From: Candidatus Daviesbacteria bacterium
GTDB lineage: Bacteria; Patescibacteriota; Microgenomatia; Daviesbacterales; UBA10151
DNA: 64,000 bases
Assembly: GCA_016176335.1 (NCBI GenBank)
Contig: JACOXI010000005.1
Coordinates: 63,391-127,390, forward strand
Direction of reading: 5' to 3'
A program made the position numbers and the translations under genes. The notes beneath the pieces are model-generated. The model was not told where the DNA came from and did not search any database. It worked only from the letters and a program-made list of their open reading frames with translations. Below are positions 9,446 through 56,340 of the stretch, piece by piece (positions within the stretch are counted from its first letter, which is position 1; every line of letters begins with the position of its first letter).

Positions 9446-10502
9446 TCTTAAACTTCCAGGACTAATTGATATACACGTACATCTTAGAACTCCGGGACAG
9501 GAACATAAAGAGGATTTCACAACTGGCACCTCTGCTGCAATAGCCGGAGGCTTTACCACTGTTTTGGATATGCCCAATAACGAAGTTCCTATCACCACTT
9601 TGGGGAAACTTCGGGCCAAAATAGAGCTGGCTAGACAAAATGCAGTTTGCGATGTAGGTTTTTATTTTGGATCTTTGGGAGATAACTTCCAAGAATTTGA
9701 CAAAATCAAGCAGTTGGTTTTTGGAATTAAGCTTTATTTAAATGTCACCACCGGCAATTTCTTAATTGATGAAGTAAAACTGGCAGCCATCTACTCTGCC
9801 TGGCCAGGCCATCAGCCCATACTGTTGCATTGCGAGGGGGAAACTTTACCAATGGCTTTAAAGATCATCAGGCAAACTAATAAAAAAACTCACATCTGTC
9901 ATGTGTCCGGCAAAGATGAACTATCACAGATCATCCGGGCCAAACAAGCTGGTTTACCGATAACTTGCGGAGTTACCCCTCACCATTTATTTTTAACCGA
10001 AGAGGATGCTAAAAAATTAGGGCCATATGGCAGAATGAAACCATTTTTAAAAACTAAAACTGATCAGAACTTTTTATGGGAAAATCTGAAATGGATTGAC
10101 GCAGTAGAATCAGATCACGCGCCTCATACTACAGTGGAAAAAGAATTTGCTAAAAACCCTCCTTTTGGAGTACCGGGACTGGAAACTACCCTGCCGCTAC
10201 TGTTAACAGCAGTTTTTGAAGGTAAACTAACGCTTGATGATGTCATCCGCCTATGCCACACAAACCCTACCAAAATCTTTAATATACCAACAGATGAACA
10301 AACTTATGTAGAAATTGATCCCGATGAACAATATACGATAAACAATAAACATTTATTTACCAAATGCGGCTGGAGCCCGTTTAAAGGGAAAAGCGTAAAG
10401 GGTAAAGTAAAAAAGGTCTTTTTAAGGGGAGAGAAAGTTTTTGACAATGGTCAAATTTTAACTCAACCAGGATCTGGAAAAGTTATTTACCCATCTTTCT
10501 AA
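9438..10502 (+). CDS. pyrC: dihydroorotase
   Basis: 354 aa. Amidohydrolase metal-binding start (IDIHVHLR), GGFTTVLDMPN, HHLFLTEED. Confidence 0.8.
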   Translation: MSNLKLPGLIDIHVHLRTPGQEHKEDFTTGTSAAIAGGFTTVLDMPNNEVPITTLGKLRAKIELARQNAVCDVGFYFGSLGDNFQEFDKIKQLVFGIKLYLNVTTGNFLIDEVKLAAIYSAWPGHQPILLHCEGETLPMALKIIRQTNKKTHICHVSGKDELSQIIRAKQAGLPITCGVTPHHLFLTEEDAKKLGPYGRMKPFLKTKTDQNFLWENLKWIDAVESDHAPHTTVEKEFAKNPPFGVPGLETTLPLLLTAVFEGKLTLDDVIRLCHTNPTKIFNIPTDEQTYVEIDPDEQYTINNKHLFTKCGWSPFKGKSVKGKVKKVFLRGEKVFDNGQILTQPGSGKVIYPSF

Positions 10503-11598
10503 TCTCTTGGGCCAGCAAAGGCTCCCACATAGCACCTGTGGCGCTCATTACACAATCTGCCCCAGCATCCTTATATTCAAAATAATCTTCTGCTTTGGTA
10601 ACTCCTCCCACACCAATTACGTTTATCGTAAATCGTAAATCGTTTATCGTTTTTCGCAGTCTCTTCACCATATCCAAGCCTGCCCATTTTATTGATGCTC
10701 CGCAAACCCCAGAGCGGGCTCTGTTTTTGCCGAGCAGCGCCTGATTTCCATCTTTATCAACAATCTCCGCTTGAATGGTATTGATGGAAGCAATAGCCTG
10801 GGCATATTGTTCACCAATTTCCACTAACTTCTTCAGATCTTCATCGCTTTGGTAATACCCCACTTTCAAAATTAAAGGAGTGACCCCAATTTCTTCTCTT
10901 ATAGCCTGACAAACCCTCTCTGTCGTCTCCAGGTTGTAACAAACCAACCCTTCATTTCCGATATTAGGACAGGACAAATTCACTTCCAAGATTTTTGCGT
11001 TTGTTTGCATCGATTGTTTTGCGGCTAAAGCATAATCCCTAACAAACTCATCCGTTGTTTGATTCTCCCTGACAGTTCCCATAAAACTTAAAACCAGAAC
11101 TTGTCCTCTTCCCGCATAAGAAATTGCCTTCTTAACATCCTCCTGCCAAACTGCCGGTTCCTTGGAAGGCACTCCAAAAGAATTAGTTATGGAAATCGGC
11201 TGCGAGTAATTATTGTCTGCCAAAAGAGGATTTTGGGCCTTCTCCAAAGTCAAATCTCCCTCAACTTTTACAGCTAAAACATTGGGGAAAGGATGGCAGG
11301 GAAAAACATCTGACCTGACTGTTTTATAGACACAAATATCAAAGCCTTTTTCAAAAGCAGCTTTACAGAATTTAGAATTGATTAAAGGCCCAGCTGGAAT
11401 ACCAAATGGCAGATGCACTTTTTGTCCTAAGAAATTGAACCTTGGTTCACCCTGAGCGAAGTCGAAGGGCTTCCCATTTGCAAATGCCCCAAACGGCCCC
11501 TGATCATAATTATCTTCATAGGATTTATTTGGATCGTAGAAAGGATCTTTAAGCATTAGGGGTATTTTAACACAAAAGTTAGACTTTCTTCTTTGCAT
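10483..11598 (-). CDS. pyrD: dihydroorotate dehydrogenase
   Basis: 371 aa. Motifs GIPAGP, LSCPN, IGVGGV. Convergent with pyrC and overlaps it by 20 nt. Carries an in-frame heptamer-repeat insert (KTINDLRFTINV). Confidence 0.75.
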   Translation of the reverse strand: MQRRKSNFCVKIPLMLKDPFYDPNKSYEDNYDQGPFGAFANGKPFDFAQGEPRFNFLGQKVHLPFGIPAGPLINSKFCKAAFEKGFDICVYKTVRSDVFPCHPFPNVLAVKVEGDLTLEKAQNPLLADNNYSQPISITNSFGVPSKEPAVWQEDVKKAISYAGRGQVLVLSFMGTVRENQTTDEFVRDYALAAKQSMQTNAKILEVNLSCPNIGNEGLVCYNLETTERVCQAIREEIGVTPLILKVGYYQSDEDLKKLVEIGEQYAQAIASINTIQAEIVDKDGNQALLGKNRARSGVCGASIKWAGLDMVKRLRKTINDLRFTINVIGVGGVTKAEDYFEYKDAGADCVMSATGAMWEPLLAQEIRKMGK

Positions 11599-11998
11599 GC
11601 TCTTTCAACCACTTGGCAATTTTTTCAACAGATAATTTTTCATTTTCGAGCTTGTGAGAAAATAGTCCACGTCTATTTTCTACTTTTAAAGCAAACTTGA
11701 CTACTTCTTTTTGCCTTGCATTGAAGAGATATCCATTTAATTCTAAAAATGTCATGGCCGAAAACATCGAGGTACGTTTATTCCCATCCACAAATGGATG
11801 ATTCCTCAATAGTACATGGATTAAAGCTCCTGTTTTTAAAAAAATATCAGGATATAAATCTTCTCCTCCAAATGAAGCTTGAGGCCTGGCCACAGCTGAT
11901 TCTAGAAGACCCAAATCACGGAGTCCGTGAGAGCCACCACTCTCATCAACTGCCATATTATGCAAAAGTAATACATCTTTGACAGATAAGTACTTCAT
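11579..11998 (-). CDS. doc: Doc (Fic-family) toxin
   Basis: 139 aa with the Fic/Doc motif HPFVDGNKRT. Confidence 0.8.
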   Translation of the reverse strand: MKYLSVKDVLLLHNMAVDESGGSHGLRDLGLLESAVARPQASFGGEDLYPDIFLKTGALIHVLLRNHPFVDGNKRTSMFSAMTFLELNGYLFNARQKEVVKFALKVENRRGLFSHKLENEKLSVEKIAKWLKEHAKKKV

Positions 11999-12011
11999 CA
12001 GTCATCCCGAA

Positions 12012-12260
12012 TTATTTTTTTGCAAGCTCTTTGAAAGCAGGCAAATATCTTTTGAGGAGTTTTTTTGCTACCATATAAACTTCAGTGTCCACAATTTCAT
12101 CTGTTGAGTCTTCGGTTACAAAGCTAATAACTACTCTCTTCTTTTTAGGCTCCTCGTAAAGATTGACAAATTTTTCCTTTGCCACACCATACGCTTCAAT
12201 AATACTTTTAGGAATAGTCACCGCATATGAGTTGCCTACCTGAATAATTTTTTGTAACAT
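12012..12260 (-). CDS. AbrB/MazE-fold antitoxin of the Doc toxin
   Basis: 82 aa. Swapped-hairpin motif VGNSYAVTIPKSI. Directly upstream of doc on the same strand. Confidence 0.55.
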   Translation of the reverse strand: MLQKIIQVGNSYAVTIPKSIIEAYGVAKEKFVNLYEEPKKKRVVISFVTEDSTDEIVDTEVYMVAKKLLKRYLPAFKELAKK

Positions 12261-12310: not shown

Positions 12311-13375
12311 CTAACGGAGTCCCCCGGTTACCCTGACCTTGGAAAGCAAATCTAAATTTTCCAGCACTTCACCGCAGCCCCTGACAACTGAAGTTAGGGG
12401 ATCATCCGCAATATAAACCGGCAATTTTGTTTCCTCCGCAATTTTTTTATCCAATCCACGAATGAGCGCTCCTCCCCCTGCCAAGTAGACTCCGCGTTCC
12501 ACAATATCAGTGAGCAGCTCCGGAGGAGTTTCTTCTAAAACTTCTTGGATGGCGGAAACTATTTGAGAAATTGTCGGAGTTAAGGCTTCTCTTATTTCTG
12601 AAGCTGTAATCTTTAAAGATTTAGGCAGACCTGATGCTAAATCCCGGCCGCGGACAACAGTTGCCAAATCATCTTTACCCAAAGGGTATGCTGAACCAAT
12701 CTCAATCTTGGCCTCCTCTGCACTCTTCTCACCAATCAGCATGCCATATCTTATCCTCATGTAATTTACAATTGCCTCATCCAACTCATCTCCTGCCACC
12801 CGCAAAGATTTATTTATCACCATCCCTCCAAGTGAGATTACAGCGATCTCTGCAGTGCCCCCCCCAATATCCACCATCATCACTCCTTCCGGTTCTTCAA
12901 CCGGCAGTTTTGCTCCAATTGCTGCTGCCATAGGCTCTTCTATCAAATATGCTTCTCTTGCTCCGGCCGAAAGACATGCATCTTGTACTGCCCTTCTTTC
13001 CACTTCTGTCACGCCTGAAGGAATTCCTACAACAATTCTTGGTTTGGGAATTTTAGGCAAAGAAAAAAAGCCGCCTTTTCCAGGGGTTTGGTGAACCTTA
13101 TGGATAAAATAACGGAGCATTGCCTCGGTGGTATCAAAGTCAGAGATTACTCCATCCCGTAACGGGCGTACTGTCTCAATAGCCGCAGGAGTTCTCCCCA
13201 GCATTCTTTTAGCCTCCACCCCAATTGCCAAAACCTGCCTGGTCTTTTTGTGCAGCGCCACCACAGTGGGCTCGCGGATTAAAATCCCTTTGCCTTTAAC
13301 TAAAACTAAAGTATTAACTGTGCCTAAATCAATGCCGATATCATGGGAAAAAAATTGCCAAAACTTATCTAACAT
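12311..13375 (-). CDS. mreB: rod shape-determining protein MreB
   Basis: 354 aa. Actin-fold motifs (IGIDLGT, DIGGGTAEIAV). Confidence 0.9.
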   Translation of the reverse strand: MLDKFWQFFSHDIGIDLGTVNTLVLVKGKGILIREPTVVALHKKTRQVLAIGVEAKRMLGRTPAAIETVRPLRDGVISDFDTTEAMLRYFIHKVHQTPGKGGFFSLPKIPKPRIVVGIPSGVTEVERRAVQDACLSAGAREAYLIEEPMAAAIGAKLPVEEPEGVMMVDIGGGTAEIAVISLGGMVINKSLRVAGDELDEAIVNYMRIRYGMLIGEKSAEEAKIEIGSAYPLGKDDLATVVRGRDLASGLPKSLKITASEIREALTPTISQIVSAIQEVLEETPPELLTDIVERGVYLAGGGALIRGLDKKIAEETKLPVYIADDPLTSVVRGCGEVLENLDLLSKVRVTGGLR

Positions 13376-14139: not shown

Positions 14140-16217
14140 TAGATCAAATTATCACTTACTCCTTTTACTTACTCTTTTTCCTAACCCCCCTTTTTTGGAC
14201 TTCTCAAAACTTTGAGCTTTTTGAATACAACAAAATGATTTTGACTTATGGAATCACAGTAATCATTGTCGGAGCCTGGATCCTTAAAGCCATAAACGAC
14301 AAACGATTAACGATCAAACGTACACCTTTAGATATACCGCTTCTTTTATTCCTAACAGCCAACATTTTATCAACTATTTTCTCCATAGACCCCCACACCT
14401 CCATTTGGGGCTATTATTCCCGCTCAAATGGCGGGCTTTTATCCATAATATCCTACCTATTATTATATTGGGCTTTTGTTTCCAATATAACTTCCGATCA
14501 AATTAAACCATTACTAAAAATTGGGCTTGTATCAGGTTTAATAATTTCCATCTGGGGTATTTCGGAACATTTTGGAGTCTCTCCCTCCTGTGTAATTTTA
14601 CGGGGACAATTTAGTGCCAATTGTTGGGTGCAAGATGTCCAAGCCAGGGTGTTTGCCACCTTGGGTCAGCCAAACTGGCTGGCAGCATATCTTGCCATGC
14701 TCATTTTCCCGGCCCTTTATTTCTTTTTGACTGCCACCACAAGATTAACCCGTACTACTTACTACTTACTACTTACTACTTACTACCTGGCCTTCACTTT
14801 TACCTATTCCAGAGGACCAACTTTGGGGCTAATTGGGGGATTTGTAGTATTTCTGTCGTTCTGGCTTGTCCAGAATCGATTCTGGAGTCGTCGCTCCGCT
14901 CCTCCCCAGAATGACACTGCTAAATTATTTGGTATTATCATTACTTCCTTCCTGGCTATTAACCTTCTCTTTGGCTCTGCCCTAACCAGCTTTAGATTAG
15001 TTTCCAAATTTGCTCCGCCTCCAAGACCTACCCTAACACTGCCTACCACCTCTGCTACCCAACTTGAGACCGGAGGCACGGAATCCGGAAAAATCAGATT
15101 AATTGTTTGGCAGGGAGCTTTGGATATTTTTAAAAACTATCCGATATTCGGCTCAGGAGTTGAGACTTTTGCTTATTCCTACTATCAATATCGTCCCTCC
15201 TCACATAACTTGACCAGTGAATGGGACTTTTTATACAACAAAGCTCATAATGAGTACTTAAATTACCTAGCAACAACTGGTTTAACAGGCTTTATTATAT
15301 ACATGGGAATAATTTTTACTTTTGTTTTTTGGAGTCTTTCAAGAATTTTAAATTTTAAATTTTCAATTTTCAATAAAAATTTTAAATTAGAAATTAAAAA
15401 TTACAAAAACGATAATTCAATAAATCTTTTATTAATAGCTCTGCTTGCATCCTATATCAGCTATCTTGTCTACAACTTTTTCTTATTCTCTGTTGTCATT
15501 ATTGCCATCTTTTTCTACCTCTTTCCCGCTCTTGCTTTTGTGGCAACAGAATCAACTAAGGTTTTTAAATGGCCTAAAAAACTATACCCTATACCCTATA
15601 CTCTATACTCTATACTTTACCGCCGTCCCATCTATACCAAAATGGTCAAAGGTATCGTGATTTTTTCTGTGCTCTTCTTTCTATATTCTATTTTCCAGCT
15701 CTGGTATGCCGACACGATTTTCAACCGTGGGCAACAAGCATCCGAGGCAGGCAATCCGGGCAGAGCTTATAATCTTTTAACAACCGCCTCGCAGTTAAAT
15801 CAGGCCGAGCCTTTTTATAGATCAGAGCTGGCTTTTTCAGCAGCTCAAGCTGCAGCTGCTTTAAAAGATACTGACGCCTCTCTTTCTGCCAAGCTTTCGG
15901 ATCAGGCCATATCTGATATGGACAGAGTTTTGCAGCAAAGTCCCCACAATGTTTCATATCTTCGAACCGCAATAAGAACCTATTTTGAGCTGGGTAGTAC
16001 TGACAAAGTCTATATAGAGAAAGCGTTGGAAGCTTTGGATAAAGCAATTTATTTGGCTCCCACCGATCCAAAACTGTATTATAACAAGGCATTAATTTTA
16101 CAATCCATGGATAAACACGATGAGGCCATAAAAGCCTTTGGGAAAGCTTTGGAATTAAAGCCTAATTATATTCAGGTTGAGGAACAACTTAAGGAAACAA
16201 CTGGATCTGCAAAATAG
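14136..16217 (+). CDS. O-antigen ligase/polymerase-like membrane protein with C-terminal TPR repeats
   Basis: 693 aa polytopic protein. Wzy_C-like segment (YNKAHNEYLNYLATTGLTGFIIY). C-terminal TPR (AIKAFGKALELKPNY). Contains three in-frame heptamer-repeat tracts. Confidence 0.6.
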   Translation: MIDQIITYSFYLLFFLTPLFWTSQNFELFEYNKMILTYGITVIIVGAWILKAINDKRLTIKRTPLDIPLLLFLTANILSTIFSIDPHTSIWGYYSRSNGGLLSIISYLLLYWAFVSNITSDQIKPLLKIGLVSGLIISIWGISEHFGVSPSCVILRGQFSANCWVQDVQARVFATLGQPNWLAAYLAMLIFPALYFFLTATTRLTRTTYYLLLTTYYLAFTFTYSRGPTLGLIGGFVVFLSFWLVQNRFWSRRSAPPQNDTAKLFGIIITSFLAINLLFGSALTSFRLVSKFAPPPRPTLTLPTTSATQLETGGTESGKIRLIVWQGALDIFKNYPIFGSGVETFAYSYYQYRPSSHNLTSEWDFLYNKAHNEYLNYLATTGLTGFIIYMGIIFTFVFWSLSRILNFKFSIFNKNFKLEIKNYKNDNSINLLLIALLASYISYLVYNFFLFSVVIIAIFFYLFPALAFVATESTKVFKWPKKLYPIPYTLYSILYRRPIYTKMVKGIVIFSVLFFLYSIFQLWYADTIFNRGQQASEAGNPGRAYNLLTTASQLNQAEPFYRSELAFSAAQAAAALKDTDASLSAKLSDQAISDMDRVLQQSPHNVSYLRTAIRTYFELGSTDKVYIEKALEALDKAIYLAPTDPKLYYNKALILQSMDKHDEAIKAFGKALELKPNYIQVEEQLKETTGSAK

Positions 16218-17064: not shown

Positions 17065-17790
17065 ATGTCAAAAGTCAAAATTATTTTTTTAGGAACTCCG
17101 CTTTTTGTTAAACTTATTAAAGATACACTGGCTAAGCATTTTACATTGGTAAAGTCACTAAAGGAGGCTGATTTAGCAGTGGTGGCGGCTTATGGCAGGA
17201 TTTTAACAAAAGATGAACTGGATATCCCTCAATATGGTTTTTTAAACATCCACCCCTCCCTTTTACCAAAATACCGGGGGCCGTCCCCAATTCAACAAGC
17301 CATCTTAAATGGAGACAAAGTATCCGGCATCACCATCATTAAAATGGATGAAGATGTGGACCATGGACCGATAATTTATCAAGAAAAATTAGAGCTTTCC
17401 GATAATGATAACTTTGATACTTTGAGTAAAAAGATGTTTCAGCTTGCAGCTCAAGTTTCACCCAAAATTATTGAAGATTTTGTATCCGGAAGAATACAAC
17501 CTACTCCACAAAATCATGATCAGGCCACCTACTGTGTTCGTCTCACCAGAGAAAGTGGGTATTTTCCTATTGATAATCCCCTCTCTGCTGAAAAATTGGA
17601 CAGGATGATTCGCGCCTATCATCCTTGGCCAGGGGTGTGGACTGTATGGGAAATCAAAAATCAAAAATCAAAAATCAAAAAGATTGTAAAGTTTCTCCCT
17701 GATGGAAGGATCCAAATGGAAGGGAAAAAAGCTATGCCGATGCGGGATTTTCTAAACGGCTACCCAGATTTTCCTTTAAAGGAACTTTAA
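17065..17790 (+). CDS. fmt: methionyl-tRNA formyltransferase (short form)
   Basis: Motifs HPSLLPKYRGPSPIQ and formyltransferase core. ATG at 17065 gives MSKVKIIFLGTP. Contains an in-frame (aatcaaa)4 tract. Confidence 0.8.
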   Translation: MSKVKIIFLGTPLFVKLIKDTLAKHFTLVKSLKEADLAVVAAYGRILTKDELDIPQYGFLNIHPSLLPKYRGPSPIQQAILNGDKVSGITIIKMDEDVDHGPIIYQEKLELSDNDNFDTLSKKMFQLAAQVSPKIIEDFVSGRIQPTPQNHDQATYCVRLTRESGYFPIDNPLSAEKLDRMIRAYHPWPGVWTVWEIKNQKSKIKKIVKFLPDGRIQMEGKKAMPMRDFLNGYPDFPLKEL

Positions 17791-31359: not shown

Positions 31360-31554
31360 ATGAAAAAAGGAGTTAGTTTTATTAAGGAAGTTTACGAAGA
31401 GTTAGTAAAAGTGGCCTGGCCCACCAGAGAACAAACTATCCGCTACACTGTTTTGGTAATCATTGTCACTTTGGTTGTGGGAGTTTTTTTGGGAGGATTT
31501 GATTATATTTTGACAGCAATAACAGCATTTATACTAGAACACTATGGACGATGA
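31360..31554 (+). CDS. secE: preprotein translocase subunit SecE
   Basis: 64 aa. VKVAWPTREQT motif followed by a single TM. Immediately upstream of nusG. Confidence 0.7.
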   Translation: MKKGVSFIKEVYEELVKVAWPTREQTIRYTVLVIIVTLVVGVFLGGFDYILTAITAFILEHYGR

Positions 31555-32308: not shown

Positions 32309-32368
32309 TCGGCTCTTCGTATATCGAATATTGGTCATCCGATAAACGATAAACGATATTCCAAACAA

Positions 32369-34317: not shown

Positions 34318-34339
34318 AAGTCCAAGTATTATAGCAGTT

Positions 34340-35323: not shown

Positions 35324-35362
35324 TAGTTGCCAAACTCTCCCTTTTAAATATACACTATTAAT

Positions 35363-35436
35363 AGCTATCAGTCTTCAGCTATCAGCTTTCAGACTGAAAA
35401 ATTGTCTGACGACTGATGACTGACAGCTGACGACTA
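35363..35436. repeat. palindromic heptamer-repeat element of the ctgatag/gctatca family
   Basis: agctatcagtcttcagctatcagctttcagactgaaaaattgtctgacgactgatgactgacagctgacgac. Lies between the divergent starts of the membrane-protein and dockerin genes. Confidence 0.75.
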
Positions 35437-35442
35437 ATTACC

Positions 35443-42588: not shown

Positions 42589-42801
42589 TCCTTAATGTCA
42601 GTCAATACGACACATTGACAAACATGACATCATAAGTTAAAATAATTTGGCTTAAGACAGTGAGTGGAGCGAAGCGACATCCTGAGCATAGTCGAAGGAT
42701 GCTTTACACCATAAATCTCACCGAGGCAGTTTAGTATATCGTAAGATTGAATATCGTATATCGGAAAACCGATAAACAATAAACGATTAACGATAAACCA
42801 A

Positions 42802-42826
42802 AAACGCCTCAGAAAGGCGTTTTTTA
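42802..42826 (+). terminator. rho-independent terminator-like hairpin plus T-run abutting the rplJ start codon
   Basis: aaacgcc-tcagaaa-ggcgttttttaa, then ATG of rplJ 2 nt later. A-run on the 5' side makes it bidirectional in form. Confidence 0.5.
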
Positions 42827-42827
42827 A

Positions 42828-43364
42828 ATGGCTAAAACTAAACAACAAAAAGAGCAAGCAGTACAACAAATACAAGAAAAGCTGGGCAAGGCCAAAGCTA
42901 TAGTTTTTGCTGACTATAAAGGCTTGACCATGAAGCATTTATCCGATTTAAGAAATAAATTGCGTGATGTTAATGGCGAATTCAGTATAACCAAAAATAG
43001 CTTACTTGAACGTGCTCTTCCCGCCTCCAACTTTGAAGGTCCAACAGCCACTCTTTTTGCGTATGATGATCAAATTACCCCTATTAAAATTTTGGTCAAA
43101 GCGCTAAAGGATGCTGCCATTGGTAAAGTTAAGGCGGGGTTTTTAGGAGTTGATGTCCTGGATGAAAACAAGATTCTTACACTGGCCAGTCTGCCCTCTA
43201 AAGATGAACTGAAAGGTCAAGTTGTGGGACTATTGGCAGCTCCACTTCAAGGTATGGTATCAGTACTACAAGGAAATCTAAGAAATTTAGTGCACGTAGT
43301 GCGCGAACTTCGTTCAGTATATACATTATCAGAAATTCAAAAAGCGAAAGGAGGTGAAAGTTAG
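42828..43364 (+). CDS. rplJ: 50S ribosomal protein L10
   Basis: 178 aa. Start MAKTKQQKEQAVQQIQEKLGKAKAIVFADYKGLTMKHLSDLR. Confidence 0.85.
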   Translation: MAKTKQQKEQAVQQIQEKLGKAKAIVFADYKGLTMKHLSDLRNKLRDVNGEFSITKNSLLERALPASNFEGPTATLFAYDDQITPIKILVKALKDAAIGKVKAGFLGVDVLDENKILTLASLPSKDELKGQVVGLLAAPLQGMVSVLQGNLRNLVHVVRELRSVYTLSEIQKAKGGES

Positions 43365-43440
43365 TATATCGTAAATCGGTTATCGTATATCGGAAACACA
43401 CAAACCATAAACGATAAACCATAGACGATCAAACAACCAT

Positions 43441-45238: not shown

Positions 45239-46030
45239 TCAACCCTTCAGCTGAGCTCTCAAAAGCAAATACAGGTATTGTATTAAAGCCAGCTGCCTTT
45301 TGATCCTCCATGGTTGAAGACACAACCTGAACAACCACTCAAATCCTAAATGTTGTATCCAAATTGGAGCTCTGGGAACCTTGCCGCTTATTATATCAAA
45401 TGCTCCCCCCACCCCCATAGCCACTTTAACAGGAATTTTGGGCAAATTTTTAGCAATCCATTTTTCTTGTTTTGGAGGACCAAGCGCCACAAACAAAATA
45501 CCTGTTTGTGGCAGATTTAAGATATAAGATTTAGGATTTATGATTTTCTCTCTATTCTTAAATCTTAAATCATAAATCATATCTCCATCATCATTAAAAA
45601 TCCCAACTTCACTGGCAAACGAGACTTTAAGTTTTGGATATTTCCTCTTCAAGCACTCAGCCGTTTTTTCTGCTATCTTCCCTCTCCCTCCTAAAAAGCC
45701 TGTTGTAAAACCCTTTTCTTCGGCCATCTTTACCAACCCTTCCATTACATCTATACCAGGGGTAGTCATAACTATATCACCAGTAAGTTTCAACCCTACC
45801 CCATCAGGAACTGCTAAATCCGCGTTATTTAATATCCTTTTAAATACAAGGTCTTTTTGGGCCGCGACGATAAACTCCGGATTAGGAGTTACTATGTAAT
45901 GTTTACCGGGATTCCAAATCCAATGCTCTACTATCGTAAGCGCTTCATTAAGACTTACATCATCAATTTTGATTCCCAGAACATCTACTTTCATAAATTC
46001 TCCAATACCCCAAGTGTTTCTTTTGCGCAT
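45239..46030 (-). CDS. tagA: WecB/TagA/CpsF-family glycosyltransferase
   Basis: 263 aa. Family motifs (IVTPNPEFIV, DLAVPDGVG). Contains an in-frame heptamer-repeat insert (YDLRFKNREKIINPKSYILNL). Confidence 0.75.
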   Translation of the reverse strand: MRKRNTWGIGEFMKVDVLGIKIDDVSLNEALTIVEHWIWNPGKHYIVTPNPEFIVAAQKDLVFKRILNNADLAVPDGVGLKLTGDIVMTTPGIDVMEGLVKMAEEKGFTTGFLGGRGKIAEKTAECLKRKYPKLKVSFASEVGIFNDDGDMIYDLRFKNREKIINPKSYILNLPQTGILFVALGPPKQEKWIAKNLPKIPVKVAMGVGGAFDIISGKVPRAPIWIQHLGFEWLFRLCLQPWRIKRQLALIQYLYLLLRAQLKG

Positions 46031-47160
46031 TTCTCCCAGCTAAATCTTTCTATATTATCAAGTCCCGCCTTAATAAGCTTAATTCTTAATTCTTGATTCT
46101 TTATTCTTATCATTCCCTTTACTATATCATCTACACTATATGGATTAACATAAACTGCTCCTTTACCAGCCACCTCCGGCATGGATGAAAGATTAGAAGT
46201 GATCACCGGACAACCACAAGCCTGGGCCTCCAAGATTGGCAAACCAAAACCTTCAAAAAGCGAAGGAAAAAGTAATGCTATTGCTCCGAAGTACAGTGCA
46301 GATAAATCTTTATCAGGCACATACCCCAAAAATTTTACCCTGTCCTCTATCCCTAATTTCTTTGGCAACTGATAAATTTCATCAGACAGCCAGCCTTTAG
46401 AACCTGCTATAACTAATTTCAGTGATTTATGATTTATGATTAAAGATTTATGATTTTTTATTCGTAAATCAGTATTCTTAAATCGTAAATCTTGCTCATA
46501 AATTAATTTTTCTTCAGATATAAACTTACTGAATGCAATAATTAAACGCTCGAGATTTTTACGAGGCTGTACTGTCCCCACAAACAAAAAATAACTATGA
46601 TACTTTAAATTATATTTCTTAATACTTTGAGTGTCTTTGAACTTTTCTTTATCATATCCTTCATAACTCACGCTGATTTTATCCGGTTTAATTCCCACCC
46701 TTTTGATAAGATCATCCTTAGTGGCCCGGGACACAGCAATCAAGGCAGTTGCGCTTTTTAGCTGGGAGCGGGTCATGAAATTTAAATACAACCTTTGTTT
46801 TAGCTGGTGCATGGCCGGAAGATATTCTGATCCCAAATCATGAACAGTCACCAAAGTCTTAAGTCCTGGCTTTCTAATAACCGGCAAGGTATGGGCAGGT
46901 ACAAATAACACATCAATATTGTCTTTGAAGGTCTGCAAAGCCAACCCCCCTTGAGTCCATAAAAATTTAAAATTTAAAGTTGAAAATTGAAAATTGTCAG
47001 GGAAATCTTTTTTAACAAAATTAACACCTGGCCTTAAATAAACTTGGTAAGTATTTTTCCTATCAATCCTTGCCAAAGCCTTAAGCAGTTGATAAGAATA
47101 ATTCTCTGTACCTGTTTTCTCTTTAATAAAGGCCCTGGAAGCATCAAATCCAATAATCAT
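45991..47160 (-). CDS. GT4-family glycosyltransferase
   Basis: 389 aa. EGFGLPILEAQACGCPVITS motif. Contains an in-frame heptamer-repeat insert (DLRFKNTDLRIKNHKSLIINHKSL). Confidence 0.8.
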   Translation of the reverse strand: MIIGFDASRAFIKEKTGTENYSYQLLKALARIDRKNTYQVYLRPGVNFVKKDFPDNFQFSTLNFKFLWTQGGLALQTFKDNIDVLFVPAHTLPVIRKPGLKTLVTVHDLGSEYLPAMHQLKQRLYLNFMTRSQLKSATALIAVSRATKDDLIKRVGIKPDKISVSYEGYDKEKFKDTQSIKKYNLKYHSYFLFVGTVQPRKNLERLIIAFSKFISEEKLIYEQDLRFKNTDLRIKNHKSLIINHKSLKLVIAGSKGWLSDEIYQLPKKLGIEDRVKFLGYVPDKDLSALYFGAIALLFPSLFEGFGLPILEAQACGCPVITSNLSSMPEVAGKGAVYVNPYSVDDIVKGMIRIKNQELRIKLIKAGLDNIERFSWEKCAKETLGVLENL

Positions 47161-48600: not shown

Positions 48601-48672
48601 AGCTATCAGTCGTCAGTCGTCAGACAGAAAATTGTATAAGTCTGATAGCTGAAAGCTGAAGTCTGATGACTA
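48601..48672. repeat. palindromic heptamer-repeat element of the ctgatag family
   Basis: agctatcagtcgtcagtcgtcagacagaaaattgtataagtctgatagctgaaagctgaagtctgatgac. A half copy lies at 16216..16250. Confidence 0.75.
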
Positions 48673-53519: not shown

Positions 53520-53601
53520 AAAGTATTATACATAAAAAATCTCAAATGGTAAATCTCAAATGTCAAAACTAGATTTGCGTTTTGCGATTTGAGTTTTGAG
53601 A
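53520..53601. repeat. same heptamer-repeat palindromic element family
   Basis: aaatctcaaatggtaaatctcaaatgtcaaaactagatttgcgttttgcgatttgagttttgagatt. Confidence 0.75.
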
Positions 53602-54585
53602 TTACTTAATCTCCACATCGTCAACCATAGTTGACCCGTCCTCAAATACCGTGACTACTGCAAACCTTGGTAATTGCGGGTTTCGCTCGGTTCCAACCGC
53701 TCCGATTGTGACCATAGACAGGTTGGTTTCCGGTTCGTTGTATTGGCTGAAATAGTGGGTATCGCCTGCAAAGACTTTTTTCACCCCTACAAGCGCAAAA
53801 ATTAAACTTCTTGCCTGATTTTTTAACTCCTTTTCTACCCTCCCCATTATATGGTCGGATGAGGGGTGAAAAAGCGGTTCATGGACAAACACAAATATAG
53901 CCTTAACTTGCTCATCTTTTGATCTTTCCAGCTCACCTGCAACCCACTTAAGTTGTACCTCATCTATCCCTAGATAATTATCACTGTTGTCAAGCAGTAT
54001 AAATTTAAAGTTATGTAAACTGAAAGATTGATAAGTAGGACCAAAAATTTGTCTGAAATTTGTCAGCGGAGGTTGATTTTTATCTCTTGAGTCCCACAGA
54101 TCATGATCTCCGGGAATCAGAAAGTAACGCAAGTTTGCCTCATCAAACTCTTTTTTGGCTTTTTGCATCTCATCCAAAGTACCTACTTCTGTATAATCCC
54201 CCAACCCGATAACAAATTGAATATCCGGAAAGATCTGTTTGGCTTGAGAGATTGCTTTTTGCAGGTTGTTATTGTCACTGTGTGAATCCGCTACCAGCAA
54301 AAATTTAAAGACGCTCTTGGGACTTGTTTTGGGAACGGGGGTGGAAGCAGTTAGATTTTGGGGCAATAATTTTTGATCTCCAATTTTAACCTTGGAAAGC
54401 AAGGTTAATGCCTCATTCGCGACTGATTTTGGATCAAGCTTTAAAGGATCCAAACCGGAAAAGTGCTTGTACGCGGAATATACCCCGCCTAAAAGTATAG
54501 TAAATATAATAAGGCTTAATATAAACCTGAATAAAATAAATATGGGATTGGCAGATTTTCTACCGCTGTGTTTTCTAAACATCAC
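53602..54585 (-). CDS. calcineurin-like metallophosphoesterase (membrane-anchored)
   Basis: 327 aa. Motifs LVADSHSD, GLGDYTEVG, IPGDHDLW. Confidence 0.7.
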   Translation of the reverse strand: MMFRKHSGRKSANPIFILFRFILSLIIFTILLGGVYSAYKHFSGLDPLKLDPKSVANEALTLLSKVKIGDQKLLPQNLTASTPVPKTSPKSVFKFLLVADSHSDNNNLQKAISQAKQIFPDIQFVIGLGDYTEVGTLDEMQKAKKEFDEANLRYFLIPGDHDLWDSRDKNQPPLTNFRQIFGPTYQSFSLHNFKFILLDNSDNYLGIDEVQLKWVAGELERSKDEQVKAIFVFVHEPLFHPSSDHIMGRVEKELKNQARSLIFALVGVKKVFAGDTHYFSQYNEPETNLSMVTIGAVGTERNPQLPRFAVVTVFEDGSTMVDDVEIK

Positions 54586-56201
54586 ATCCTTTCTGGTGCC
54601 GAAACTCCCAAAAGTTTTAAAGTATTTGCTAAAGTGATTTTGCAGGATTTAACCAAAGCAAGCCTTGCTTTCACTAATCCTGAAGTTTCTGCAGATAGAA
54701 CCGGACAGGTTTCATAAAACTTATGGAAAAAGTCAGCTAGAGATATGGCATACTCTGTTAGCTGATGAACTTGGAGATTAATAGCTAATTCTGACACTAA
54801 ATCAGGAAAATATAAAAGATGTTTTATCAAATTAAGCTCATATTCGGTCTGTAATTGTCCAAAATCCACATTTTGGAATTTGGAATTTGTGATTTGAGAT
54901 TTGAGCAATATATTACTCATCCTGGCATGAGCATACTGAACATAGAAAACCGGATTCTTGCTTGATTGTTCTTTTACAAGCTCAAGATCAAAATCCATGT
55001 GAGTTTGAGGGGCAAACCGCAGAAGATAAAATCTGAAAGCATCCACCCCTACCTCATCCAACACCTCTCTGGCCGTAATAAAATTACCAGCTCTTTTACT
55101 CATTTTAACGATATCAGAACCCCTCTTTACTCGAACATACTGATACAAAATTACTTTTAATCTTTTGGGGTCAAACCCTAAAGCAGAAGCTGCAGCTTGT
55201 AATCTTGACACATGACCATGATGGTTACTCCCAAATACATCAATAATTGGATCTGCTCCAGATTCAAATTTGATTTTGTGATAAACAATGTCCGCAGTAA
55301 AATATGTATATCCTCCATCGGATTTTTGAATAACTGTCTCACGATCTTTTAAAAACTCATCTTTGGGTGCCAGCCACAAAGCACCCTCTTTTTCCTTTAA
55401 TACTCCTGCCTTTTTAAGTTGTGCCAAAACTTGGGCAGCCTCTTTTCTCAAATCGGATTCATGTACAACAAGATCAAATTTAATTCCCATTGAGTGACAG
55501 TCTGCCAAAATTTCCTGATGCAAAAGAGCAACTGCCATCATGCCTGTTTCCTCATCACTCTTTCCTTCCATATCAGCACCCAAATTTTTTACCAGATCAT
55601 CTATATACCCGCCTTTGTATTGTTTTTCCTCCGGCAAATCTTTGTGGTATTTTGCCCTGATAGTTGCCCCCAAAGCCTTAATTTGTTCACCAACATCATT
55701 ATTAAGAAATTCCCTAATCACCTCATACCCTTGAGATAATAAAACATTGGCAATCACATCACCTAAAGGCCCGCCTCGGGCATTACCCATATGCAAGGGA
55801 CCGGTGGGGTTGGCGGAAACATATTCCACTCTTGCTTTCTTATCTTCTCCCAAACTAGAGCTACCAAAGTTCTTGTCTTTTTCTAAGATTTCTTTTAAAT
55901 CTTGGGCTAATTTTTCAGCTTTTACAAAAAAATTTATAAAACCGCTACCGGCAATTTTAATTTCAGAGAAATTATCCTGAGCGGAGTCGAAGGACTTCAA
56001 CTTTTCAATAATTTCATTAGCAATTTCTGTTGGAGACTGCTTATTGGAAACTCCTTCCAGTTTAGCAAGCTGCAAAGCCAAATTCGTAGTATAATCTCCA
56101 AATTGGGGATTTTTAGGAATAGATAAAACTATATCAATGGCTAGAAAGCCTAAATCCCCAATTACCTTTTTTAAATCAGCTAAAATTTGATCCTTCACCA
56201 T
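54582..56201 (-). CDS. argS: arginyl-tRNA synthetase
   Basis: 539 aa. Class I motifs (SANPTGPLHMGNARGG, KMSKRAGN). Confidence 0.9.
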   Translation of the reverse strand: MVKDQILADLKKVIGDLGFLAIDIVLSIPKNPQFGDYTTNLALQLAKLEGVSNKQSPTEIANEIIEKLKSFDSAQDNFSEIKIAGSGFINFFVKAEKLAQDLKEILEKDKNFGSSSLGEDKKARVEYVSANPTGPLHMGNARGGPLGDVIANVLLSQGYEVIREFLNNDVGEQIKALGATIRAKYHKDLPEEKQYKGGYIDDLVKNLGADMEGKSDEETGMMAVALLHQEILADCHSMGIKFDLVVHESDLRKEAAQVLAQLKKAGVLKEKEGALWLAPKDEFLKDRETVIQKSDGGYTYFTADIVYHKIKFESGADPIIDVFGSNHHGHVSRLQAAASALGFDPKRLKVILYQYVRVKRGSDIVKMSKRAGNFITAREVLDEVGVDAFRFYLLRFAPQTHMDFDLELVKEQSSKNPVFYVQYAHARMSNILLKSQITNSKFQNVDFGQLQTEYELNLIKHLLYFPDLVSELAINLQVHQLTEYAISLADFFHKFYETCPVLSAETSGLVKARLALVKSCKITLANTLKLLGVSAPERM

Positions 56202-56340
56202 AAGTTAATAATAGCATATCTCAAATGTCAAAACTCAAATGTCAAATCTGAATCTTAAAACTTAAAACTAGACTAAAACAGTTTTGAGATTTAAGTTTTA
56301 GTTTTGAGTTTTGCGATTTGCGTTTTGAGTTAACATTAGC
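56202..56340. repeat. palindromic composite intergenic element built from degenerate heptamer repeats (tcaaatg arm / cattttga arm)
   Basis: Left arm tctcaaatgtcaaaactcaaatgtcaaatctgaatcttaaaacttaaaac, centre tagactaaaacag, right arm ttttgagatttaagttttagttttgagttttgcgatttgcgttttgag. The arms are reverse complements of each other. Confidence 0.8.

What the first reader, a model, noticed from the sequence alone, without database searches (positions are those of the whole stretch)
10618..10656. cgataaa-family heptamer repeat inserted in-frame in pyrD just before the conserved IGVGG motif
The CDS contains cgtttatcgtaaatcgtaaatcgtttatcgtttttcg, encoding ...RKTINDLRFTINV-IGVGGV on the minus strand. 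The same repeat family (cgataaacgataaacg) is an intergenic leader element in front of rplK (32338..32356), rplJ (42770..42800) and rplL (43400..43430). It is also inside the O-antigen-ligase-like gene at 14292..14320 (KAINDKRLTIKRT). An intergenic repeat family that also sits in coding sequence suggests active spread into genes.
Basis: seen in the sequence. Interest (0 to 1): 0.65.

Follow-up and report, generated by a model that had tools for sequence, protein, structure and literature searches.

The report
Seven-base repeats rewriting a gene
A run of a repeated 7-letter DNA word sits inside a pyrimidine-synthesis gene of a tiny groundwater bacterium, not as an insertion but as a same-length rewrite of 13 amino acids, and it is one of dozens of such runs that pepper this lineage's DNA, genes included.

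Summary
The sequence is real. It lies at 10620-10656 and holds 5.3 copies of a 7-nt unit, CGATAAA on the coding strand. It encodes RKTINDLRFTINV just before IGVGG in a DHODH-family gene of a Candidatus Daviesbacteria (CPR) genome.

It is not an insertion. 94 of 120 homologues have exactly 13 residues at this position, whether or not they carry a repeat.

The tract is one of about 33 period-7 arrays in the 64 kb window. No other short period is clearly enriched. The excess is concentrated in the Daviesbacteria clade.

At the same pyrD site, sister genomes carry arrays of different units, such as AAGTCAA, AAATTCA, GTACAGG and TAATAGC. Others keep a non-repetitive, ancestral-like sequence. The same pattern recurs in pyrC, a Wzy-like gene, fmt, ArgRS and ribosomal protein L10, where lengths step 168/175/182 aa.

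The rplK, rplJ and rplL "leader" copies are arms of imperfect hairpins made of inverted heptamer arrays. They are not conserved in sister genomes.

Best reading: arrays arise in place by a lineage-specific 7-nt-register slippage or template-switch bias, filtered by selection on frame, stop codons and fold. Spread of one mobile repeat family into pyrD is not supported.

Heptamer repeat excess is known in other bacteria. I found no description of this coding-sequence overwriting.

The parts
10620..10656 (-). Heptanucleotide array in the DHODH-family gene. It has 5.3 units, CGAAAAA|CGATAAA|CGATTTA|CGATTTA|CGATAAA on the coding strand, and encodes RKTINDLRFTINV.
   Evidence: The array has the same length as the non-repeat segment of its homologues.
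10483..11556 (-). DHODH-family (probable pyrD) gene. The annotated product is 357 aa; the longest ORF runs to 11598.
   Evidence: Pfam DHO_dh scores 74 bits against a gathering score of 27. P0001 is 100% identical. The closest solved structures are Lactococcus DHODA and DHODB. All NCBIfam equivalog models score below their cut-offs.
10322..10351 (+). CGATAAA/CAATAAA-type array inside pyrC (dihydroorotase), encoding ..YTINNK... It is length-neutral.
   Evidence: L008 has (AAACCCT)n at the same site with the same length.
14290..14320 (+). Degenerate CGATAAA-type array in the Wzy_C/O-antigen-ligase-like gene (KAINDKRLTIK). It is length-neutral.
14753..14786 (+). Perfect (TACTACT)x4.9 array in a hydrophobic stretch inside the Wzy_C-domain match of the Wzy-like gene (TTYYLLLTTYY).
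   Evidence: Sister genomes have TACATTN or GTTACNN units at the same site with the same length.
15344..15407 (+). AATTTTA/AATTTTC arrays in a Wzy-like loop. Here they form an insertion of about 9-12 aa relative to orthologues.
15582..15616 (+). (CTATACC/CTATACT)x5 array in the Wzy-like gene ([15 protein letters not shown]).
17651..17681 (+). Perfect (AAATCAA)x4.4 array in fmt. It is an 8-aa insertion relative to most orthologues.
45505..45590 (-). Inverted pair of heptamer arrays (AGATTTA / TCTTAAA, TAAATCA) inside the WecG-family glycosyltransferase gene. It folds as a hairpin.
   Evidence: z = -4.2.
46078..46996 (-). Three separate arrays at 46078-46108, 46423-46456 and 46962-46996 inside the GT4/GT1 glycosyltransferase gene.
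54872..54905 (-). TTTGGAA/TTTGAGA array in arginyl-tRNA synthetase, in the variable loop after YVQYAHARMSNIL.K.
32317..32358 (+). nusG-rplK spacer hairpin. The left arm is TATATCG-type and the right arm is (CGATAAA)x2.7.
   Evidence: z = -2.3. No Rfam family matched at E up to 1.
42734..42806 (+). Hairpin of inverted heptamer arrays (TATATCG.. / CGATAAA..). It lies in the A/U-rich linker of the L10 leader, upstream of the terminator stem at 42800-42826.
   Evidence: (z = -5.3). RF00557 scores 35 bits, below its gathering score of 44, and the hairpin appears as an insertion relative to the model.
43364..43434 (+). rplJ-rplL spacer hairpin with the same architecture. The three sister genomes examined have no such spacer.
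   Evidence: (z = -2.1).
35363..35435 (.). Intergenic hairpin of inverted arrays (AGCTATC / CTGACGA).
   Evidence: z = -5.0.
48606..48660 (.). Intergenic hairpin of inverted arrays (TCAGTCG / CTGAAAG).
   Evidence: z = -4.8.
53537..53603 (.). Intergenic hairpin of inverted arrays (CTCAAAT / ATTTGAG family).
   Evidence: z = -3.8.
56218..56331 (.). Long intergenic hairpin of inverted arrays (CTCAAAT, GTCAAAA / TTTTGAG, ATTTGCG).
   Evidence: z = -4.8.

Best explanation
The tract is a short, degenerate heptanucleotide microsatellite lying in frame in a DHODH-family (probable pyrD) gene of a Candidatus Daviesbacteria genome.

Shown:
- It is one of about 33 period-7 arrays in this 64 kb window, and the excess is concentrated in the Daviesbacteria clade.
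- It replaces, codon for codon, a 13-residue segment: the last two turns of an outer helix, a turn, and the start of the strand that leads into the FMN-binding GVGG loop. It adds nothing to the protein's length.
- Sister genomes carry arrays of other units at the same site.

Inferred:
- Arrays arise in place through a lineage-specific bias toward 7-nt-register strand slippage or out-of-register template switching during replication or repair.
- Neighbouring units homogenise each other over time.
- Selection then keeps only products that preserve the reading frame, the length, the absence of stop codons and the hydrophobic pattern of the strand.
- Between genes, where constraint is weak, the same process builds about ten times denser arrays, often as inverted pairs that fold into hairpins.
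For: Period specificity:
- Exact-run counts are 20 at period 7 against 0.25 expected, and 0-2 at every other period from 2 to 15.
- Scored segments number 22 at period 7 and 0 at periods 5, 6, 8 and 9.
- Whole-window autocorrelation is raised at lags 7, 14 and 21.

Lineage:
- Daviesbacteria loci hold 84 period-7 windows in 380 kb, against 2-6 for the other periods apart from the multiples 14 and 21 (40 and 10).
- Other CPR loci show only a small excess, 25 against about 8 in 768 kb, mostly from loci next to the Daviesbacteria clade.

Local evolution rather than import:
- Units are very diverse: roughly 40-60 distinct canonical units among 115 arrays.
- The pyrD site carries CGATAAA, CGATTAA, AAGTCAA, AAATTCA, AAATCAA, AGATCAA, TAATAGC, CAACAGG, GTACAGG or TTACAGG/GGACAGG in different genomes, always within the same roughly 13 codons.
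- 30 of 120 homologues show 7-aa periodicity here, against 0.18% of other windows in the same proteins.
- L010, which has no repeat, groups with array-bearing L012 and L015 at 87% bootstrap. Array-bearers are monophyletic in 0 of 200 replicates.

Selection filter:
- The two units read in frame 0 are exactly the ones changed from CGATAAA, to CGAAAAA and CGATTTA, which removes an in-frame TAA.
- The same happens at 15344, where AATTTTA becomes AATTTTC.
- Array density is about 9-fold higher between genes than within them (with corrections).
- The AlphaFold model places the segment in a confident helix-turn-strand, with pLDDT 93-97.

Frame-preserving expansion:
- An L10 insert of exactly 7 aa is a (CTTCCAG)n array in L078.
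- L10 lengths cluster at 168, 175 and 182 aa.

Adjacent units are more alike than distant ones: 0.85, 1.14 and 1.22 mismatches at separations 1, 2 and 3. The way arrays were detected biases this comparison.

Precedent: heptanucleotide repeats are reported as the most abundant long SSR class in many bacteria, and polymerase slippage has been proposed as the cause (Mrazek 2007, as summarised in PMC4692102 and PMC4679880).
Against: - Each single +7 or -7 step in a gene is a frameshift. Length-neutral overwriting of pyrD, pyrC and the Wzy-like gene therefore needs paired or complex events that were not observed.
- Array length has a mode at 4-5 units (69 of 117) and almost no arrays are longer. 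Simple slippage would predict a steady decline with length.
- No copy-number variation was seen. Six Logan contigs from five sequencing runs are 100% identical to the window over the stretches they cover, which include the rplJ and rplL hairpins and the ArgRS array. No second assembly covers the pyrD array.
- Arrays within one genome share 10-mers more often than non-orthologous arrays of different genomes, 6.3% against 2.5%. This hints at some exchange between loci or a genome-specific preference for certain units.
- The cause of the number 7 is unknown.
Confidence: 0.65

Rival explanations
1. A dispersed, possibly mobile intergenic repeat family (CGATAAA arrays or hairpins) has inserted into pyrD, or has converted it by ectopic recombination, and is spreading into genes.
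For: - CGATAAA-type arrays occur at six loci in the window, three between genes and three inside genes: 18 matches against 0.36 expected.
- A second family, CTCAAAT/ATTTGAG, is likewise found in intergenic hairpins and in ArgRS and NusG coding sequence.
- Arrays within a genome share 10-mers 2.6 times more often than non-orthologous arrays between genomes (Fisher p = 5.6e-6, though the pairs are not independent).
- Similarity within one mismatch is also higher within genomes; 16 of 2000 permutations reached the observed value.
Against: - There is no length gain at the pyrD site.
- The pyrD tract has no hairpin or second arm (z = -0.2), and no added length that an inserted element would bring.
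- Orthologous sites carry arrays of unrelated units.
- The test specific to pyrD was not significant, and exact-unit sharing was not significant either.
- The hairpins are not conserved. The rplJ leader hairpin has GGTTACA-type units in L078 and is absent in L079 and L080. The rplJ-rplL spacer hairpin is absent in all three sister genomes.
- The longest stretch shared between pyrD and any putative donor is about 14 nt, or two units.
Confidence: 0.13
2. The array is a functional element, for example a phase-variation switch in which 7-bp slippage toggles the frame as in E. coli neuO, or a binding site or RNA signal selected at the nucleic-acid level.
For: - Heptanucleotide tracts inside coding sequence do drive phase variation in neuO (PMC13001214).
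- Several arrays here lie in surface-glycan genes (the Wzy-like gene, WecG, GT4), and two are perfect.
- The intergenic inverted arrays fold significantly better than shuffled sequence.
Against: - The pyrD tract is short and interrupted; its longest perfect run is about 2.4 units.
- It lies in the last fifth of a housekeeping-type enzyme gene.
- The unit sequence is not conserved among orthologues, which argues against a sequence-specific ligand.
- The tract has no predicted RNA or DNA structure.
- Independent assemblies show no length variation at the arrays they cover.
Confidence: 0.07
3. A dedicated, length-preserving patch process rewrites stretches of about 30-35 bp into 7-bp periodic sequence without changing their length. 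Candidates are reiterative gap-filling by a repair polymerase, or out-of-register short-patch conversion.
For: - Overwriting is length-neutral at several constrained coding sites.
- Array and hairpin-arm length has a tight mode at 4-5 units.
- The pyrD site appears to have been overwritten more than once.
Against: - No enzyme or intermediate has been identified.
- Loops and linkers do show length-changing arrays: fmt +8 aa, L10 +7 aa, and Wzy-like and ArgRS loops. Length neutrality may therefore simply reflect selection.
- The length mode could reflect a balance between growth and instability, together with detection thresholds.
Confidence: 0.12
4. The tract is a chance or protein-level feature, that is, selection for the peptide TIND...TIN or for an amphipathic helix.
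For: One weak period-7 signal in the window, at 10383-10407 in pyrC, does turn out to be a conserved protein motif, G.KV.GKV.
Against: - None of 100 shuffles reproduces the tract.
- The periodicity is 7 nt, read in three different frames. Selection on the peptide cannot create that.
- The peptides differ completely among orthologues.
Confidence: 0.02

Closest known systems
Heptanucleotide long simple-sequence repeats (LSSRs) of bacterial genomes (Mrazek, Guo & Shah 2007, as summarised in PMC4692102 and PMC4679880)
   Same: These are head-to-tail 7-nt units. Period 7 is specifically over-represented relative to neighbouring periods. Many different units occur in one genome. Polymerase slippage has been proposed as the cause.
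   Different: The repeats described there are mainly intergenic, and coding SSRs are reported to favour unit lengths that are multiples of three (PMC4679880). Here at least 12 of about 33 arrays lie well inside conserved genes. Some replace constrained segments codon for codon. The lineage (CPR, Daviesbacteria) was not found in any paper retrieved.
Cyanobacterial STRR / Nostoc GGGGAYT and Xanthomonas GGGAATC heptamer arrays (PMC4692102)
   Same: These are lineage-specific excesses of intergenic heptamer arrays. Some are arranged as inverted pairs able to form stem-loops. Length and sequence vary between close relatives at the same intergenic position.
   Different: Those systems are dominated by one or a few G-rich units, some able to form G-quadruplexes. 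Here the units are A/T-rich and highly diverse, and the arrays extend into coding sequence.
TAACTGA direct repeats of marine Beggiatoaceae and some cyanobacteria (PMC4679880)
   Same: These are short sets (2-6 copies) of a heptamer, often just upstream of start codons, including those of ribosomal-protein genes.
   Different: That system uses a single specific heptamer, and related heptamers rarely repeat, which suggests a sequence-specific ligand. Here no unit dominates.
neuO-type phase-variable heptanucleotide tract in a coding sequence (PMC13001214)
   Same: A 7-nt unit is repeated inside an ORF. Three units equal 21 nt, or 7 aa, so only copy numbers in the right class keep the frame. This parallels the 7-aa length steps seen in L10.
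   Different: neuO has 3-53 perfect copies at the 5' end of the gene and varies between cells. The pyrD tract has 5 imperfect units, lies in a structured core segment, and no variation was observed.
REP/MITE-like intergenic palindromic elements (from my own knowledge)
   Same: The intergenic members are dispersed imperfect hairpins, 60-110 nt long, located between genes.
   Different: There is no conserved element sequence, no evidence of transposition, and the arms are themselves tandem heptamer arrays. The pyrD tract is a single arm with no added length.
'Cryptic simplicity' generated by slippage in coding regions (Tautz, Trick & Dover 1986; from my own knowledge)
   Same: The idea is the same: slippage-like turnover reshapes tolerant parts of proteins and creates lineage-specific peptide segments.
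   Different: That concept was described mainly for eukaryotic genes and for repeats compatible with triplets. Here the register is strictly 7 nt, in a bacterium with a reduced genome.

Membership tests
Heptanucleotide tandem array (bacterial LSSR) | At least 3 head-to-tail copies of a 7-nt unit | tested here: met
   5.3 copies with 83% matches. The units are legible directly in the sequence.
Heptanucleotide tandem array (bacterial LSSR) | More frequent than chance, and specific to period 7 | tested here: met
   0 of 100 shuffles reproduce the tract. Period 7 gives 20 runs against 0.25 expected, and other periods 0-2. Scored segments number 22 at period 7 and 0 at periods 5, 6, 8 and 9.
Heptanucleotide tandem array (bacterial LSSR) | Part of a genome-wide, lineage-level excess | tested here: met
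   About 33 arrays in 64 kb. Daviesbacteria loci hold 84 period-7 windows in 380 kb; other CPR loci show only a small excess.
Heptanucleotide tandem array (bacterial LSSR) | Copy-number change by slippage between strains | tested here: inconclusive
   Six Logan contigs of the same strain, from five runs, are identical over the arrays they cover. None covers pyrD, and the metagenome scan found nothing. Between species, units and copy number do differ.
   13 residues in 94 of 120 homologues, whether repeat-bearing or not. The codon count is the same in distant CPR homologues.
   The pyrD tract does not fold (z = -0.2 and -0.7). Only one array orientation is present, and no length is added. Target-site duplications were not searched for separately.
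   The unit is shared with five other loci. However, the pyrD-specific permutation test was not significant, as was exact-unit sharing. A general excess of shared 10-mers within genomes was significant, but the pairs are not independent.
Phase-variable contingency locus (neuO-like) | Long perfect repeat tract | tested here: not met
   The longest perfect run is about 2.4 units, and three of the five units are variants.
Phase-variable contingency locus (neuO-like) | On/off length variants within a population | not testable with these tools
   This needs the sequencing reads of the source metagenomes. Only consensus assemblies are available.
Dihydroorotate dehydrogenase, class 1 (host gene) | DHO_dh domain and the G-x-G-G FMN-binding loop | tested here: met
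   Pfam PF01180 scores 74.4 bits against a gathering score of 27. IGVGGV is invariant in 42 homologues. The best solved structures are Lactococcus DHODA and DHODB, at E about 8e-10.
Dihydroorotate dehydrogenase, class 1 (host gene) | Reaches a curated equivalog threshold | tested here: not met
   The best NCBIfam hit scores 78.7 bits against a cut-off of 269. Public annotations alternate between DHODH, tRNA-dihydrouridine synthase and hypothetical protein.
Dihydroorotate dehydrogenase, class 1 (host gene) | Pyrimidine-pathway gene neighbourhood | tested here: met
   pyrF, a pyrE-like phosphoribosyltransferase and pyrC lie immediately adjacent.
Ribosomal protein L10 leader (RF00557), for the rplJ upstream copy | Match to the covariance model at the gathering score | tested here: not met
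   35 bits against a gathering score of 44, E = 3e-4. The conserved AAGACAG...CCGAGG box and the terminator stem align. The heptamer hairpin appears as an insertion in the linker. It has other units in L078 and is absent in L079 and L080.

The most novel reading that the evidence does not exclude
Daviesbacteria may possess a lineage-specific DNA process that rewrites patches of about 30-35 bp into 7-bp periodic sequence without changing their length. It would act between genes and inside essential, structurally constrained genes, repeatedly at the same permissive sites. Candidate mechanisms are reiterative gap-filling by a repair or replicative polymerase, or out-of-register short-patch conversion. 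The result would be a built-in generator of new peptide segments in a genome-reduced symbiont, and a tractable handle on the long-standing question of why heptamers dominate bacterial long SSRs.
Probability: 0.15. Interest if true: 0.85.

Novelty: new variant of a known kind. Interest (0 to 1): 0.55.

Why it matters
Heptamer repeats have been known since 2007 to be oddly over-represented in bacteria, and the cause is still unexplained. They have been treated as intergenic curiosities or as phase-variation switches.

In this CPR lineage the same 7-nt process visibly reshapes proteins:
- It overwrites a structured 13-residue segment next to the FMN-binding loop of a DHODH-family enzyme with different peptides in different species.
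- It does the same in pyrC and in a Wzy-like membrane protein.
- It adds 7-aa modules to ribosomal protein L10.

This gives three things. It is a natural experiment on how much sequence a folded segment can lose while keeping its length and hydrophobic pattern. It is a source of lineage-specific peptide novelty in very small genomes. And it provides a dense set of orthologous sites where the mechanism behind the number 7 could be worked out.

On the practical side, such tracts break short-read assemblies and can mislead gene callers and alignments in CPR genomes.

Tried and rejected
1. Insertion hypothesis. Rejected by alignments of 120 homologues and by codon-level comparison of 27 loci.
2. 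Structure in the pyrD tract, as RNA on either strand. z = -0.2 and -0.7, so none.
3. Rfam at gathering thresholds. Only four tRNAs were found. At the E-value threshold there was a sub-threshold L10 leader and nothing upstream of rplK.
4. fmt split by a frameshift at the 17056 array. False alarm: the upstream ORF is def, and fmt starts within the array.
5. Wzy-like gene fused to the next ORF across the 16216 array. False alarm: the array is intergenic.
6. The period-7 signal at 10383-10407. This is a conserved protein motif (G.KV.GKV) present in all CPR homologues, not an array.
7. Genome-specific unit families. Exact-unit sharing was not significant. The pyrD-specific test was not significant. 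Only the looser measures were significant.
8. Strain polymorphism. Logan contigs of the same strain are identical. The JGI metagenome scan with the pyrD flanks found nothing.
9. Single origin of the pyrD arrays. Not supported by a concatenated pyrD + MreB + Wzy neighbour-joining bootstrap. That tree is star-like, and recombination is not excluded.
10. Literature on heptamer repeats in CPR, Patescibacteria or Daviesbacteria. Nothing was found.
11. The first version of the unit-similarity script timed out and was rerun. One literature query was malformed.
Full report
OBSERVATION. Tandem Repeats Finder calls it a period-7 array of 5.3 copies with 83% matches and consensus CGTTTAT. A degenerate pattern, CG-W5 three times followed by CG, matches nowhere else in the window and in none of 100 dinucleotide shuffles. 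The tract lies in ORF 10483..11598 on the minus strand. On the coding strand it reads CTG|CGAAAAA|CGATAAA|CGATTTA|CGATTTA|CGATAAA|CGTAATT, which encodes L-RKTINDLRFTINV-IGVGGV. One was missed, at 10322-10351 inside pyrC. In all, CGATAAACGATAAACG with up to 3 mismatches matches 18 times against 0.36 expected.

HOST GENE AND ORGANISM. The product is 100% identical to a protein of a Candidatus Daviesbacteria MAG, and the closest other homologues (70-82% identity) are Daviesbacteria or Patescibacteria. NCBI taxonomy places this group in the Microgenomates group of Patescibacteria. The gene matches Pfam DHO_dh at 74 bits against a gathering score of 27. Its nearest solved structures are Lactococcus DHODA and DHODB, at E about 8e-10. 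It sits beside pyrF, a pyrE-like phosphoribosyltransferase and pyrC. It stays far below every curated NCBIfam equivalog cut-off, 78.7 against 269 bits. 'DHODH-family, probably PyrD' is therefore as far as the evidence goes.

NOT AN INSERTION. In an alignment of 120 homologues, 94 have exactly 13 residues between ..VKRL and IIGVGG. Distant CPR homologues with no repeat have the same 13 codons and a conserved motif, K.IR...G..F.I. Relative to solved class-1 DHODHs the family is 3 residues longer here (1jub) or 5 residues longer (1ep1). That difference is shared by every family member and has nothing to do with the repeat. The repeat occupies the place of the ancestral segment codon for codon. 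An AlphaFold2 model (mean pLDDT 83; 93-97 over this stretch) puts R301-L307 at the end of helix 287-307, residues 308-311 in a turn, and N312-V316 in the strand that leads into the GVGG loop.

A GENOME-WIDE PERIOD-7 PHENOMENON.
- Counting exact lag-p runs, period 7 gives 20 against 0.25 expected. Every other period from 2 to 15 gives 0-2.
- With a mismatch-tolerant score, period 7 gives 22 arrays, periods 5, 6, 8 and 9 give none, and the multiples 14 and 21 give 9 and 2.
- A looser threshold gives 33 arrays.
- Whole-window autocorrelation is visibly raised at lags 7, 14 and 21.
- Units are diverse and mostly A/T-rich: TACTACT, AAATCAA, CTATACC, AGATTTG, CGATAAA and others.
- I corrected two ORF-calling artefacts: the 17056 array lies at the def-fmt junction, and the 16216 array is intergenic. 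After that, about 17 arrays are intergenic, 3 lie in doubtful N-terminal extensions, and 12-13 lie well inside Pfam-supported genes: pyrD, pyrC, the Wzy-like gene (several), fmt, WecG, GT4 (three) and ArgRS.
- About 92% of the window is coding by a greedy ORF set, so intergenic density is roughly nine-fold higher.

LINEAGE SPECIFICITY. Among 77 loci fetched around pyrD homologues, period-7 runs total 43 in 1.15 Mb, against 0-4 for each other period from 4 to 12. They sit almost entirely in the Daviesbacteria clade. By a window-based measure, Daviesbacteria loci have 84 period-7 windows in 380 kb against 2-6 for other periods. Other CPR loci have 25 against about 8 in 768 kb, mostly from loci next to the clade. 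The arrays appear in MAGs from many studies and several assemblers, so they are not an assembly artefact.

THE ORTHOLOGOUS pyrD SITE.
- At the DNA level the same roughly 13 codons hold different units in different genomes:
  - CGATAAA (window, L005) and CGATTAA (L001)
  - AGATCAA (L014) and AAATCAA (L013)
  - AAGTCAA (L003) and AAATTCA (L011, L029)
  - TAATAGC (L006) and CAACAGG (L007, L012)
  - GTACAGG (L015) and TTACAGG/GGACAGG (L004)
- L002, L010, L018, L072 and L074 keep a non-repetitive, ancestral-like sequence such as VKIRQEAGVDLKI.
- At the protein level, 30 of 120 homologues show at least 3 identities at lag 7 aa in this segment, against 0.18% of all other 13-aa windows in the same proteins. 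Every window with 4 or more such identities falls at this site.
- In a concatenated pyrD (segment masked) + MreB + Wzy neighbour-joining analysis, L010 groups with array-bearing L012 and L015 at 87% bootstrap. Array-bearers are monophyletic in 0 of 200 replicates. This points to more than one origin, although the tree is star-like and recombination cannot be excluded.

SELECTION IS VISIBLE IN THE TRACT. A perfect (CGATAAA)n read through three frames would place TAA in frame at units 1 and 4. Exactly those two units are altered, to CGAAAAA and CGATTTA. The AATTTTA array at 15344 switches to AATTTTC at the point where TAA would otherwise fall in frame. Across genomes the last positions before IG keep a hydrophobic-x-hydrophobic pattern (TINV, KIKI, QIAI, TVKI), as a beta-strand requires.

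OTHER GENES SHOW THE SAME BEHAVIOUR.
- Wzy-like gene: the TTYYLLLTTYY stretch at 14753-14786 is (ACTACTT)n in several genomes, but TACATTN or GTTACNN arrays of equal length in others.
- pyrC: YTINNK in the window and L017 is replaced by an (AAACCCT)n array of equal length in L008.
- Where structure allows, arrays add length: fmt +8 aa, Wzy-like loops, and the variable ArgRS loop after YVQYAHARMSNIL.K.
- Ribosomal protein L10: protein lengths are quantised at 168 (49 proteins), 175 (24) and 182 (2) through exact 7-aa inserts. One of these, LPASSFQLPVSSF in L078, is a (CTTCCAG)n array at the DNA level.

THE INTERGENIC 'LEADER' COPIES.
- The sites upstream of rplK, rplJ and rplL are each the right arm of an imperfect hairpin whose left arm is a TATATCG-type array (z = -2.3, -5.3 and -2.1).
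- Most other intergenic arrays are likewise inverted pairs (z = -3.8 to -5.0). One such pair lies inside the WecG gene (z = -4.2).
- Upstream of rplJ, Rfam's L10 leader aligns below threshold (35 bits against 44, E = 3e-4), with its conserved box and terminator intact. The heptamer hairpin appears as an insertion in the A/U-rich linker.
- In sister genomes this hairpin is built of GGTTACA-type units (L078) or is absent (L079, L080). The rplJ-rplL spacer hairpin is absent in all three.
- These hairpins are therefore not conserved leader elements.

IS THERE A SPREADING FAMILY?
- Units are too diverse for a single element: roughly 40-60 distinct canonical units among 115 arrays.
- Exact-unit sharing is no higher within genomes than between them.
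- Each genome's pyrD array does not match that genome's other arrays more often than under permutation: 1 of 17 observed against 1.29.
- Looser measures do show some within-genome excess. Similarity within one mismatch reached the observed value in 16 of 2000 permutations. 10-mer sharing is 6.3% within genomes against 2.5% between non-orthologous arrays (Fisher p = 5.6e-6, pairs not independent).
- Genome-specific unit preferences, or occasional exchange between arrays, therefore cannot be excluded.

STABILITY. Four Logan assemblies from four sequencing runs are 100% identical to the window across both ribosomal hairpins. Two more are identical across ArgRS, and one of them ends at both ends inside inverted arrays, which is consistent with shared k-mers. 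No second assembly covers the pyrD array, and a JGI metagenome scan with its flanks found nothing.

MECHANISM.
- Shown: the tract is a 7-nt tandem array; it is one of many; the excess is concentrated in this lineage; it is in place and length-neutral; and it is shaped by selection.
- Inferred: arrays arise locally by a 7-nt-register slippage or template-switch bias, and homogenise unit by unit. Adjacent units differ by 0.85 mismatches, against 1.14 and 1.22 at separations of two and three units, though the detection method biases this. Survival is limited to frame-, stop- and fold-compatible products.
- Unexplained:
  - why the period is 7;
  - why array length peaks at 4-5 units (69 of 117);
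  - how length-neutral overwriting avoids frameshifted intermediates.
- These gaps leave room for a dedicated length-preserving patch process, which I put at about 12-15%.

COMPARISON WITH WHAT IS KNOWN. Heptanucleotide repeats are reported as the most abundant long SSR class in many bacteria, with a polymerase-slippage hypothesis and coding SSRs favouring multiples of three (Mrazek 2007, as summarised in PMC4692102 and PMC4679880). Lineage-specific intergenic heptamer arrays, some as inverted pairs, are described for Xanthomonas and Nostoc (PMC4692102). TAACTGA repeats are described for Beggiatoaceae (PMC4679880). A heptanucleotide tract inside a coding sequence drives neuO phase variation, with translation only when the copy number is divisible by three (PMC13001214). 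I found nothing on CPR, Patescibacteria or Daviesbacteria, and nothing on codon-for-codon overwriting of conserved protein segments. I therefore class this as a new variant of a known kind. The specific 'mobile repeat inserted into pyrD' reading is not supported.

CAVEATS.
- Gene boundaries come from ORFs plus Pfam, not from a trained gene caller.
- Phylogenies are neighbour-joining trees on 1208 columns.
- Some public records carry unreliable taxon labels.
- The pairwise array statistics are not independent.
- All sequences are consensus assemblies.

Noticed in passing
window 42828-43364 and homologues P0241-P0360; L078:3001-3528: Ribosomal protein L10 lengths in Daviesbacteria are quantised: 168 aa (49 proteins), 175 aa (24) and 182 aa (2). 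The steps come from exact 7-aa inserts at two sites. One insert (LPASSFQLPVSSF) is a (CTTCCAG)n heptamer array at the DNA level.
   Followed up: partly
window 42633-42835: A sub-threshold L10 leader (RF00557; 35 bits against a gathering score of 44) with its conserved box and terminator. It carries the heptamer hairpin as an insertion of about 41 nt in its linker. Sister genomes have a different hairpin or none.
   Followed up: partly
window 31544-32308, 32806-33723, 43441-44088: NusG (254 aa), L1 (305 aa) and L7/L12 (215 aa) have long, charged, low-complexity N-terminal extensions of about 80-95 aa before the conserved domains. L12 is only 123-168 aa in three sister genomes. Heptamer arrays lie near the starts of the NusG and L1 ORFs.
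   Followed up: no
window 33730-42588: rplK-rplA and rplJ-rplL are separated by about 9 kb. This stretch encodes an LMW phosphotyrosine phosphatase, an LPG_synthase_TM protein, a dockerin-domain protein and a 1554-aa DUF5667 protein. Its GC content is 0.45-0.475, against about 0.39 elsewhere.
   Followed up: no
window 10322-10351 versus 10620-10656: The CGATAAA-type arrays in pyrC (plus strand) and pyrD (minus strand) are inverted relative to each other and about 270 bp apart, flanking the overlapping 3' ends of the two convergent genes. L017 has the pyrC array but a different pyrD array, so the pairing looks coincidental.
   Followed up: partly
window 53575 and 56246 (ends of L085): One Logan contig of the same strain (L085) ends at both ends inside the inverted heptamer arrays that flank ArgRS. 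Such arrays therefore appear to fragment short-read assemblies of these genomes.
   Followed up: partly
window 11579-12260: A Doc toxin / antitoxin pair lies directly upstream of pyrD on the same strand. The toxin ORF overlaps the longest pyrD ORF by 20 nt, and the annotated pyrD start is at M15.
   Followed up: no
window 12311-13375 and 47526-48542: Two MreB paralogues occur in one 64 kb window of a genome-reduced CPR bacterium.
   Followed up: no
window 42505-42573: Period-9 and period-27 tandem repeats (consensus CTACCACATCCGAACCGGCCCCAACAC, 2.1 copies) lie near the 3' end of ORF 41875-42588, which has no Pfam match. Four Logan contigs start about 300 bp upstream, at 42199 or 42207.
   Followed up: no
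all arrays in the window and in Daviesbacteria loci: Array length has a mode at 4-5 units, or 28-35 bp (69 of 117 arrays), and almost none exceed 5.5 units. Hairpin arms are about the same length. This is not the steady decline expected from simple slippage.
   Followed up: partly
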